Shown: one piece after another, positions 24,000 through 25,832 of the stretch
How positions within the stretch are numbered: the stretch's first letter is position 1
Layout: each line of letters starts with the position of its first letter
Assembly (NCBI RefSeq): GCF_006345805.1
Contig: NC_043006.1
Coordinates: 94,736,001 to 94,800,000, forward strand
Length of the DNA stretch: 64,000 nucleotides
Source: Octopus sinensis
Taxonomy: Eukaryota
Direction of reading: 5' to 3'
Position numbers: made by a program

Positions 24000-24046
<47 letters not shown>

Positions 24047-25759
24047 TCCGTAATGAAGGATGAAATGAATAATTTGGAATAATTATCAATTACACCAAGT
24101 AGTCCTCGGCATGTAAAAGCCTCATTCGAGGAAAATTTAAGTAATACTAAGCAATAAAGGGTTTAGCAACGAATTGCCTTACCACATACCGAATTTAGAA
24201 ATAGCAGTCAAAGAGTTATAGCTATTTCTTTACTAAAAAGGGAGATCTCAGTAAAAACAGCAATTGGAAGGCAGACAAAACAGGTAAGAGAGAATGAATT
24301 GACGGCAATATATCATACAATTTTAAGTTATCTACGGACGTACGTTTCGAAATCAAGTTTTTAGGAAGCATAAGAATTAAATATTAAATAATTCTATCTT
24401 ACCAAAAACTTCTTTTCTCTTCAGCGTAGAATACTATAATCATAAATGATATATATTGAATTTTGAGATACTAGAAGGCACCAACTCACTCAGTATCAGA
24501 GCGAGCTAGAATCCGCAACTAGTATCACCAAATTCAATGCGTGAATGAAAAGATTGTGTCACCAGCCCCTTCCCACACGCGTGTAGCCAAAACAAGATGC
24601 TGTGGTCATCTACTGAGATAAAATATGGTTATCCGTAATAATGAAGGGTGAAATTAATTAATTTGGAATAATTATCAATTACACCAAGTAGTCCTCGGCA
24701 TGTAAAAGCCTCATTCGAGGAAAATTTAAGTAATACTAAGCAATAAAGGTGACACAATCTTTTCATTCACGCATTGAATTTGGTGATACTAGTTGCGGAT
24801 TCTAGCTCGCTCTGATATGATTGAGTTTGGTGCCTTTATGTATCTCAAAATTCAATATATAATCATTTATGATTATAGTATTCTACGCTGAAGAGAAAAG
24901 AAGTTTTTGGTAAGATAGAATTATTTAATATTTAATTCTTATGCTTTCCTAAAAACTTGATTTCGAAACGTACGTCCGTAGATAACTTAAAATTGTATGA
25001 TAGATTGCCGTCAATCATTCTCTCTTACCTGTTTGTGTCTGCCTTCCAATTGCTGTTTTTACTGAGATCTCCCTTTTTAGTAGAAGAAGTAGCTATAACT
25101 CTTTGACTGCTATTTCTAAATTCGGTATGTGGTAAGGCAATTCGTTGCTAAACCCTTTATTGCTTAGTATTACTTAAATTTTCCTCGAATGAGGCTTTTA
25201 CATGCCGAGGACTACTTGGTGTAATTGATAATTATTCCAAATTAATTAATTTCACCCTTCATTATTACGGATAACCATATTTTATCTCAGTAGATGACCA
25301 CAGCATCTTGTTTTGGCTACACGCGGGTGGGAAGGGGCTGGTGACACAATCTTTTCATTCACGCATTGAATTTGGTGATACTAGTTGCGGATTCTAGCTC
25401 GCTCTGATACTGAGTTGAGTTGGTGCCTTCTAGTATTTCAAAATTCAATATATAATCATTTATGATTATAGTATTCTACGCTGAAGAGAAAAGAAGTTTT
25501 TGGTAAGATAGAATTATTTAATATTTAATTCTTATACTTTCCTAAAACTTGTTATTTCGAAACGTACGTCCGTAGATAACTTAAAATTGTATGATAGATT
25601 GCCGTCAATTCATTCTCTCTTACCTGTTTGTGTCTGCCTTCCAATTGCTGTTTTTACTGAGATCTCCTTTTTAGTAGAAGAAATAGCTATAACTCTTTGA
25701 CTGCTATTTCTAATTCGGTATGTGGTAAGGCAATTCGTTGCTAAACCCTTTATTGCTTA

Positions 25760-25832
<73 letters not shown>

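What the first reader, a model, noticed from the sequence alone, without database searches (positions are those of the whole stretch)
24043..25761. Retrozyme-like tandem ~594-nt monomers, one intact hammerhead each: candidate circular RNA replicon
Seen: two same-strand hammerheads have predicted cuts after 24976 and 25570, 594 nt apart, in head-to-tail near-identical ORF-less repeats. A third copy lies in an opposed block. The same monomer junction (..ttacggataac|catattttatctcag..) is present in both the + and - blocks, so it pre-existed in the template. Known: retrozymes are non-autonomous retroelements whose tandem hammerheads release monomers that circularise; described animal non-LTR retrozyme monomers are generally shorter. 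Inference: double cleavage would free a ~594-nt RNA that can circularise and be reverse-transcribed around the circle by a PLE RT. That would explain the >1-unit, circularly permuted inserts. High copy identity suggests a recent event.
Basis: partly seen in the sequence, partly recalled or inferred. Interest (0 to 1): 0.9.

Follow-up and report, generated by a model that had tools for sequence, protein, structure and literature searches.

The report
Hammerhead-ribozyme retrozyme insertion in an octopod genome
This is a small non-coding mobile element that carries a self-cutting RNA motif in every 594-base unit and sits in a TA repeat in the pattern left by Penelope-like retrotransposons; it is a new example of a known class, not a new kind of thing.

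Summary
Window 24043-25763 consists of one 594-nt unit. It is present as 1.2 units on the minus strand joined head-to-head to 1.7 units on the plus strand. There are three intact type I hammerhead motifs, cutting after 24976 and 25570 (+) and after 24337 (-). No reading frame exceeds 65 aa.

The motif is not chance: 1 of 200 shuffled windows gave any descriptor hit. Rfam's hammerhead models do not match it. Helix II is unusually long (69-71 nt) and helix III is an 8-nt palindrome, as in dimer-acting animal hammerheads.

Both outer ends abut (TA)n. Three further hammerhead loci in the window have the same head-to-head, TA-flanked layout. This is the published insertion signature of Penelope-like elements.

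So it is a non-LTR retrozyme family in a cephalopod genome: a new member of a known kind. The template RNA crossed an uncut ribozyme site, so it was either a religated circle or an uncleaved multimer; the sequence cannot tell which.

Monomer size (594 nt) lies within the published 51-972 bp range. Copies are 93.5-97.9% identical, so the event is not very recent. "Replicon" is unsupported, because the antisense polarity has no ribozyme. Genome-wide copy number and RNA evidence could not be checked.

The parts
24001..24042 (.). (TA)21 microsatellite abutting the left (minus-block) outer end
   Evidence: TRF; run list
24043..24336 (-). Minus block, 3' partial unit (monomer 1 to about 300). Its 3' end meets the TA run with a 4-nt ATAT microhomology after one mismatch.
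   Evidence: blastn; alignment
24337..24749 (-). Minus block, 5' partial unit (monomer 178-594). Its 5' end lies at the head-to-head junction.
   Evidence: blastn
24331..24430 (-). Hammerhead copy c. Helix I 24430-24425 / 24336-24331; CUGAAGA 24424-24418; helix II 24417-24349 (69 nt); GAA 24348-24346; ACGUACGUC 24345-24337; cut between 24337 and 24336.
   Evidence: fold
24748..24749 (.). Head-to-head junction of the two blocks. The two bases (GG) are shared by both alignments (2-nt microhomology).
   Evidence: overlapping blastn ends; sequence
24748..24976 (+). Plus block, 5' partial unit (monomer 364-594)
24882..24982 (+). Hammerhead copy a. Helix I UCUACG 24882-24887 / CGUAGA 24977-24982; CUGAAGA 24888-24894; helix II 24895-24964 (70 nt, G10.1-C11.1); GAA 24965-24967; ACGUACGUC 24968-24976; cut after 24976.
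   Evidence: The MFE fold forms helices I and II and leaves the core open.
24977..25570 (+). Complete 594-nt monomer bounded by two cut sites; 34.5% G+C
   Evidence: Circular fold -157.9 kcal/mol against -119.0 +/- 6.5 for 100 shuffles.
25475..25576 (+). Hammerhead copy b. CUGAAGA 25481-25487; helix II 71 nt; cut after 25570.
25571..25763 (+). Plus block, 3' partial unit (monomer 1 to about 192), ending in the TA run with a 3-nt TAT microhomology
25761..25828 (.). (TA)34 microsatellite abutting the right outer end
23911..23991 (+). Left copy of a flanking direct repeat, (TA)n-CACGCGTATATACAGC-(CT)n-(CA)n. Its partner lies at 25802-25882 (86% identity). Possibly a long target-site duplication; unresolved.
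   Evidence: D5
25802..25882 (+). Right copy of the flanking direct repeat

Best explanation
The locus is one insertion of a non-autonomous, hammerhead-bearing retroelement: a non-LTR retrozyme family with a 594-nt unit. The host genome looks like an octopod cephalopod.

Shown by sequence:
- Each unit carries a type I hammerhead with a complete catalytic core.
- Helix I is 6 bp. Helix II starts with G10.1-C11.1 and runs for 69-71 nt.
- Helix III is an 8-nt palindrome (ACGUACGU). It cannot close on itself but pairs between two copies, as in the dimer-acting hammerheads of amphibian satellites and PLEs.

Inferred mechanism:
- These are ligated by a host RNA ligase into a highly paired circle.
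- A Penelope-like element protein supplied in trans nicks both strands of an AT-rich (TA)n target.
- Each 3'-OH primes reverse transcription on element RNA, starting at A/U-rich sites that share 3-4 nt with the TA run.
- The two cDNAs run inward for 1.2 and 1.7 units, across intact ribozyme junctions, and are joined head-to-head at a 2-nt microhomology.

The template was therefore either a religated circle or an uncleaved multimer. I slightly favour the circle but cannot show it.
For: Hammerhead is real:
- The descriptor hits 3 copies here, against 1 of 200 shuffles with any hit.
- All three copies keep CUGAAGA...GAAA...GUC and 6 of 7 helix I pairs.
- The MFE of each 110-112-nt segment forms helices I and II with the core unpaired (z -2.4 to -2.8).
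- Four unrelated hammerhead loci in the window keep helix I pairing with different sequences: UCUACG/CGUAGA, UUUGG/CCAAA, GUUUUC/GAAAAU, CCAC/GUGG.

Dimer:
- Cofolding the two plus-strand segments gives -58.4 kcal/mol, against -23.1 and -22.9 alone, with the 8-bp intermolecular helix III formed.

Non-coding, low G+C, tandem:
-.

Structured RNA:
- The circular sense fold has z = -6.0 (0 of 100 shuffles as stable) and is 66% paired.
- The antisense fold has z = -3.2.

PLE-type insertion:
- The two blocks lie head-to-head with their 3' ends outward, and both ends sit in (TA)n.
- The layout recurs at E2 (9593-10205), E3 (36750-37280) and E4 (63392-63717).
- 7 of 8 outer ends abut a pure (TA)>=6 run, whereas 6.6% of window positions lie within 6 nt of one.

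Published:
- PLEs make partial tandems with an inverted 5'-truncated copy and prefer microsatellites such as (TA)n (PMC8557442, passages).
- A purified PLE protein cleaves and extends both strands at AT-rich DNA (PMC11167929, main text).
- Animal retrozymes are proposed, and phylogenetically linked, as PLE derivatives (PMC7761336 passages; preprint 10.64898/2026.07.22.740005 Results).
- PLEs are present in Octopus vulgaris (PMC13282606 passages).

Not an assembly fold-back:
- The arms are asymmetric (5' ends at monomer 178 and 364, 3' ends near 300 and 192) and 93.5-97.6% identical rather than exact.
Against: - No Rfam hammerhead model matches at any threshold tried. The identification rests on my own descriptor.
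- The 69-71-nt AU-rich helix II is far from the usual 4-bp stem, so the loop 1-loop 2 contacts needed for fast cleavage may be missing. PLE-type hammerheads cleave poorly in vitro (PMC4209133 passages).
- No second copy of this family exists in the 64 kb, and no eukaryotic genome collection was available, so mobility of this family is not shown.
- No PLE RT or GIY-YIG domain was found in 92 frames of >=100 aa, nor in 150 of the 221 frames of 65-99 aa. Of the other 71, 62 low-complexity frames and 9 further frames were not sent. The only RT is an APE-type LINE fragment at 29277-30320.
- In vitro, hammerhead cleavage was dispensable for PLE insertion, and unprocessed RNA was the main substrate (PMC11167929). 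This weakens the circle step.
- I defined the outer ends of E2-E4 partly by eye, so the 7-of-8 count is not fully blind.
Confidence: 0.72

Rival explanations
1. Same element and same PLE machinery, but no circle. The template was an uncleaved linear multimer transcribed from a tandem donor locus, with internal initiation of reverse transcription. The hammerhead plays no part in integration.
For: - Both blocks cross intact 594|1 junctions, which an uncleaved multimer explains directly.
- PMC11167929 reports internal RT initiation and proposes a multi-copy mRNA template.
- The same paper found hammerhead mutants inserting normally, and no RNA-seq reads ending at the cut site.
- Autonomous PLEs of 3-4 kb form the same partial tandems without any known circles (PMC8557442).
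Against: - The hammerhead core is intact in 3 of 3 copies despite 2-6% divergence elsewhere, and the monomer folds far better than chance. That fits selection on a processed RNA.
- Related retrozymes in coral, mussel and axolotl accumulate as circRNAs (PMC7761336 passages).
- Private changes are homogeneous across the pieces (24 events in 1613 copy-columns, p = 0.24). One clonal template would predict this, but so would a homogeneous donor array.
Confidence: 0.3
2. A short stretch of hammerhead satellite or minisatellite DNA that was amplified and inverted by DNA-level processes (unequal exchange, fold-back repair at fragile TA repeats), not a retrotransposition product.
For: - Hammerhead tandem repeats were first described as satellite DNA (PMC7229834 Introduction).
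- TA-rich microsatellites are prone to breakage (my own knowledge).
- A flanking direct repeat, 23911-23991 versus 25802-25882, shows some local duplication.
Against: - There are only 1.2 and 1.7 units, not an array.
- Four sequence-unrelated hammerhead loci share the same head-to-head, TA-bounded layout within 64 kb. This points to one integration mechanism rather than four independent rearrangements.
- The junctions show 2-4-nt microhomologies typical of primed synthesis.
Confidence: 0.08
3. Assembly artefact: a chimeric or fold-back long read produced the opposed blocks.
For: - Palindromic structures flanked by low-complexity TA runs are hard to assemble. PMC8557442 notes that PLE insertions cause assembly problems.
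- E4 is a perfectly symmetric palindrome, which could be such an artefact.
Against: - The E1 arms are not mirror images. They have different end points and 2.4-6.5% divergence, with private changes in each piece.
Confidence: 0.04

Closest known systems
Metazoan non-LTR retrozymes (Cervera & de la Pena 2020, PMC7229834; review PMC7761336; preprint 10.64898/2026.07.22.740005)
   Same: - Type I hammerhead once per unit and head-to-tail units.
- No coding capacity, and G+C below 45%.
- A highly self-paired predicted circle.
- Weak palindromic helix III implying cleavage as a dimer.
- Suspected mobilisation by PLEs.
- Monomer length inside the 51-972 bp range of the preprint.
   Different: - Helix II is 69-71 nt instead of about 4 bp plus a loop, and no Rfam hammerhead model matches.
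- The unit is about twice the ~300 bp (PMC7229834) or ~150-300 bp (PMC7761336) given in the 2020 papers.
- The host is a cephalopod. My searches found no paper describing retrozymes in cephalopods, and supplements were closed.
- The inverted-plus-direct, TA-bounded layout is not mentioned in PMC7229834 ('inverted' and 'microsatellite' both 0 occurrences).
Penelope-like elements and their pseudo-LTR hammerheads (PMC4209133, PMC8557442, PMC11167929)
   Same: - Partial tandem plus an inverted 5'-truncated copy.
- AT-rich or (TA)n targets.
- Hammerhead with a small palindromic helix III and a larger-than-usual helix II.
   Different: - No RT or GIY-YIG ORF, and the whole unit is 594 nt against 3-4 kb.
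- Helix II is 69-71 nt here against 6-8 bp in PLE min-hammerheads.
- Reverse transcription starts here are not at one fixed internal site (monomer about 192 and about 300).
Hammerhead satellite DNAs of newts, schistosomes (Sm-alpha) and cave crickets
   Same: Tandem units with type I hammerheads that act as dimers (PMC7229834).
   Different: Those are long arrays. This is a two-armed insertion of under two units per arm.
Plant LTR retrozymes (PMC4918200)
   Same: Non-autonomous; hammerhead-processed; monomers of 600-800 nt (PMC7229834 Introduction).
   Different: The plant elements have type III hammerheads, LTRs, PBS/PPT, 4-bp TSDs and G+C above 55%. Here the hammerhead is type I, there are no LTRs, and G+C is 34.5%.

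Membership tests
Metazoan non-LTR retrozyme | Type I hammerhead with conserved core (CUGANGA...GAAA...UH) and helices I-III | tested here: met
   Descriptor hits at 24888/24965/24976, 25481/25559/25570 and 24424/24348/24337, with 1 of 200 shuffles giving any hit. Core and pairing table. Caveat: no Rfam hammerhead hit.
Metazoan non-LTR retrozyme | Head-to-tail repeats with a hammerhead in every unit, so that at least two same-strand ribozymes bound a monomer | tested here: met
   Cuts after 24976 and 25570, 594 nt apart. The preprint's definition of an 'active' retrozyme was seen as a passage.
Metazoan non-LTR retrozyme | No protein-coding capacity | tested here: met
   Longest frame is 65 aa in the element and 62 aa in a monomer trimer. 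The 65-aa frame 24167-24361 has no Pfam hit.
Metazoan non-LTR retrozyme | Low G+C (<45%) | tested here: met
   34.5%
Metazoan non-LTR retrozyme | Monomer predicted to fold into a stable, highly paired circle | tested here: met
   -157.9 kcal/mol against -119.0 +/- 6.5, z = -6.0, 66% paired
Metazoan non-LTR retrozyme | Self-cleavage and accumulation as circular RNA | not testable with these tools
   No transcriptome or bench assay was available.
Metazoan non-LTR retrozyme | Dispersed multiple genomic copies (mobility) | not testable with these tools
   Only this locus in the 64 kb.
Autonomous Penelope-like element | ORF with telomerase-like RT and GIY-YIG endonuclease | tested here: not met
   No such domain in the element or anywhere in the window, among the frames sent.
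Autonomous Penelope-like element | Insertion architecture: partial tandem plus inverted 5'-truncated copy, with microsatellite or AT-rich target | tested here: met
   literature
Viroid-like RNA replicon | RNA-to-RNA rolling-circle replication, usually with ribozymes in one or both polarities and no DNA stage | tested here: not met
   The element is genomic DNA. The antisense polarity of the monomer has no hammerhead under either the strict or the relaxed descriptor. RNA replication itself is not testable here.
Plant LTR retrozyme | Type III hammerheads inside LTRs, with PBS and PPT | tested here: not met
   The open helix is helix I, so the motif is type I. The repeats are whole units, not LTRs flanking a core. 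PBS and PPT were not searched for.
Rfam Hammerhead families | Score at or above the gathering threshold of a curated hammerhead covariance model | tested here: not met
   0 matches at gathering score over the whole window. None among 23 matches at E<=10 over 23900-25900. None among 99 matches at E<=10 over the compact E4 motif.

The most novel reading that the evidence does not exclude
Cephalopod genomes may hold a distinct variant class of retrozymes. Their units would be 530-600 nt, and the hammerhead helix II would be expanded to 50-70 nt, with a tandem A.G/G.A internal loop where loop 2 normally sits. The two-armed E1 insertion, with more than one unit per arm, would then be a direct footprint of rolling-circle reverse transcription of a circRNA. 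Priming would come from both nicked strands of a (TA)n target by a dimeric PLE protein. That would be the first structural, rather than phylogenetic, link between retrozyme circles and the PLE integration mechanism.
Probability: 0.25. Interest if true: 0.6.

Novelty: new member of a known kind. Interest (0 to 1): 0.4.

Why it matters
In 2020, animal retrozymes were said to carry no motif that reveals which autonomous element moves them (PMC7761336, passage). A 2026 preprint links them to PLE pseudo-LTRs by phylogeny in vertebrates.

This window gives independent, structural evidence in a mollusc. Four unrelated hammerhead elements all have the PLE insertion signature. One of them (E1) reads more than once around its unit in both arms, which fixes the template as either a circle or a multimer.

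It also shows that standard covariance models miss these hammerheads. They will be absent from routine annotation, and probably sit among the many 'unclassified SINE' or unknown repeats of octopus genomes.

Tried and rejected
- Rfam at gathering score over the whole window, and at E<=10 over E1 and E4: no hammerhead family. The hits were spurious miRNA-hairpin and TA-repeat matches.
- TRF did not report the 594-nt period, because its longest period is 500.
- The RT at 29277-30320 was tested as a possible PLE. It is an APE-type LINE fragment: RVT_1, and relatives carrying Exo_endo_phos domains. It is therefore not the helper.
- No Pfam hit suggested a PLE in 92 frames of >=100 aa, nor in 150 of 221 frames of 65-99 aa. 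Of the other 71, 62 were dropped as low-complexity and 9 were not sent.
- E1 against E2 by permissive blastn: only AT-rich matches at 63-71% identity, E >= 1.6e-4. I treat them as separate families.
- I tried to use variant sharing between pieces to tell a clonal circle from a heterogeneous multimer. By columns the private changes look heterogeneous (p = 0.0015), but by events they do not (p = 0.24). This was uninformative.
- The open frame 63659-64000 next to E4 was considered as a possible PLE N-terminus. It is CT-rich low complexity with no Pfam hit, and I did not pursue it.

Full report
**What is there**

The stretch 24043-25763 is built from one 594-nt unit. I number the unit from the base after the predicted ribozyme cut. 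blastn of 24977-25570 against the window gives five pieces:
- minus strand, 24749->24337 = monomer 178-594
- minus strand, 24336->24038 = monomer 1-304 (the last five bases run into the TA run, so the element ends at 24043)
- plus strand, 24748-24976 = monomer 364-594
- plus strand, 24977-25570 = monomer 1-594
- plus strand, 25571-25763 = monomer 1-194

The locus is therefore two blocks lying head-to-head, with their 3' ends (in RNA sense) pointing outward. One block has 1.2 units on the minus strand and the other has 1.7 units on the plus strand. They meet at 24748/24749, where two bases (GG) belong to both alignments.

The outer ends abut (TA)21 at 24001-24042 and (TA)34 at 25761-25828. There is no other copy in the 64 kb. 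No frame exceeds 65 aa, and none opens when the monomer is read as a circle. G+C is 34.5%.

Pairwise identity of the pieces is 93.5-97.9%. In the 532 alignment columns covered by three or more pieces (1613 copy-columns in all) there are 37 private column changes, grouping into 24 events. These are spread evenly over the pieces when counted as events (p = 0.24).

**The ribozyme**

Each unit has, in order:
- UCUACG
- CUGAAGA
- a 69-71-nt helix II that opens G10.1-C11.1 plus three A-U pairs
- GAA
- ACGUACGU
- C, then the cut
- CGUAGA

This is a complete type I hammerhead core with a 6-bp helix I. The unconstrained minimum-energy fold of each 110-112-nt segment forms helices I and II and leaves the core open (z -2.4 to -2.8).

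Helix III is an 8-nt palindrome that cannot close on itself. When the two plus-strand segments are cofolded, the 8-bp intermolecular helix III forms and the dimer gains about 12 kcal/mol (-58.4 against -23.1 and -22.9). Cervera and de la Pena describe the same logic for most metazoan type I hammerheads (PMC4209133, passages).

A strict descriptor finds four hits in the window, against 1 of 200 dinucleotide shuffles with any hit. Against this, no Rfam hammerhead model matches at gathering score or at E<=10. A helix II of this length is unusual, and cleavage activity is unproven.

**More of the same in the window**

A relaxed descriptor (shuffle mean 0.09 hits, maximum 2, over 100 shuffles) gives nine placements at four loci.

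- **E1** is the finding itself.
- **E2** (9593-10205, minus strand) has one hammerhead, CUGAGGA...GAAACAAUUGUC, cutting after 9752.
  - A 531-nt period is shown by the direct repeat 9593-9621 / 10124-10152.
  - A 44-nt inverted piece lies at 10162-10205.
- **E3** (36750-37280) has opposed hammerheads cutting after 36960 (-) and 37218 (+). Its arms are 90-95% complementary.
- **E4** (63392-63717) is a symmetric palindrome with a compact hammerhead in each arm.

E1 and E2 share no meaningful sequence similarity. Across the four loci, helix I differs in sequence but stays paired. Helix III is a perfect 8-nt palindrome in E1, E2 and E4, and contains ACAUGU in E3.

Seven of the eight outer ends abut a pure (TA)>=6 run, while 6.6% of window positions lie within 6 nt of one. 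I set some of these ends by eye.

The E1 monomer folded as a circle is far more stable than shuffles (z = -6.0). The same holds for E2 (z = -4.4).

**Host and neighbours**

The only reverse transcriptase in the window is a 5'-truncated APE-type LINE at 29277-30320. Its named relatives are from Argonauta hians, so the genome is probably an octopod.

No PLE RT or GIY-YIG domain was seen in 92 frames of >=100 aa, nor in 150 of 221 frames of 65-99 aa. PLEs do exist in Octopus vulgaris: a table seen as a passage lists 31 Penelope-like families (PMC13282606). That paper has 0 occurrences of 'hammerhead' and 'retrozyme'.

**How it most likely works**

Published work describes the following:
- PLE insertions are partial tandems, often with an inverted 5'-truncated copy, and are biased to microsatellites such as (TA)n (PMC8557442, passages).
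- A purified PLE protein nicks and extends both DNA strands at AT-rich sites and starts reverse transcription inside the RNA (PMC11167929, main text).

E1 fits this. Two cDNAs were primed from the two strands of a TA repeat. They began at A/U-rich monomer positions (about 192 and about 300) that share 3-4 nt with the repeat. They ran inward and were joined at a 2-nt microhomology.

Both arms cross an intact 594|1 junction. A cleaved linear monomer therefore cannot have been the template. It was either a religated circle, as in the retrozyme model (PMC7761336, passages), or an uncleaved multimeric transcript, as in the PLE model of PMC11167929. The sequence cannot separate these.

Two observations lean toward a processed RNA:
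- The core is intact in 3 of 3 copies.
- The RNA fold is strong and favours the sense polarity.

One lean goes the other way: in vitro, cleavage was dispensable for PLE insertion.

**Comparison and novelty**

Every sequence-level feature of metazoan non-LTR retrozymes is met: type I hammerhead per unit, tandem units, no coding capacity, low G+C and a paired circle. Expression, circularity and copy number are untestable here.

The unit length is not exceptional. The 2020 papers give about 300 bp (PMC7229834) and about 150-300 bp (PMC7761336), but a 2026 preprint reports 51-972 bp.

Three things are new:
- The host group. My searches found no paper on cephalopod retrozymes. Supplements were closed and may list some.
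- The very long helix II.
- The clear PLE-type insertion footprint.

'Replicon' is not supported. The antisense polarity has no ribozyme, and the element is genomic DNA.

A rough age can be estimated from the 1.5-2.3% private change per copy. Using the octopus scale quoted in PMC13282606 (Jukes-Cantor distance 0.065 at 18 My), this gives a few million years. This is an inference.

**Left open**

- Genome-wide copies, RNA evidence and raw reads.
- Whether 23911-23991 / 25802-25882 (86% identity) is a long target-site duplication.
- Whether the perfect symmetry of E4 is biological.
- The N run at 35662-35761, which was not touched.

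Noticed in passing
window 9593-10205 (minus strand): A second ORF-less hammerhead element (E2): CUGAGGA at 9820, cut after 9752, helix II 50 nt, helix III ACAAUUGU. It has a 531-nt period, about 1.07 units plus a 44-nt inverted piece, and (TA)n at both ends. 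It is unrelated in sequence to E1.
   Followed up: partly
window 36750-37280: A third hammerhead element (E3) with opposed arms that are 90-95% complementary. Cuts lie after 36960 (-) and 37218 (+), the cleavage triplet is GUA, and helix II is 55 nt. The plus copy has an 8-nt duplication inside helix III. TA runs lie at both ends.
   Followed up: partly
window 63392-63717: A fourth hammerhead element (E4): a perfectly symmetric palindrome of 2 x 162 nt around 63554, with a compact hammerhead in each arm (helix II 5 bp, ACAAUUGU, GUA). It could be snap-back cDNA or an assembly fold-back. Rfam reads it only as spurious miRNA hairpins.
   Followed up: partly
window 23677-23908: A 232-bp element with terminal inverted repeats of about 30 nt (GGTCTGATCAATAAGTATCCGGACTGTTG...), sitting between two TA runs. 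It looks like a Tc1/mariner-type MITE inserted in the same microsatellite tract.
   Followed up: no
window 23911-23991 and 25802-25882: A direct repeat, (TA)n-CACGCGTATATACAGC-(CT)n-(CA)n at 86% identity, brackets E1. The left copy is separated from the insert by a further (TA)21. It may be an unusually long target-site duplication or an older local duplication.
   Followed up: partly
window 29277-30320 (+): A 5'-truncated APE-type LINE (RT motifs through the C-terminus, with one in-frame stop at 29847). Its best named relatives are from Argonauta hians, which suggests an octopod genome.
   Followed up: yes
window 63211-63391: A pair of inverted segments of about 75 nt arranged tail-to-tail around a TA run (63288-63316), immediately left of E4. 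This may be another small foldback element.
   Followed up: no
whole window: There are 117 pure (TA)>=6 runs covering 4.7% of the 64 kb, plus many CA, CT and CTAT microsatellites. An assembly gap of 100 N lies at 35662-35761.
   Followed up: no
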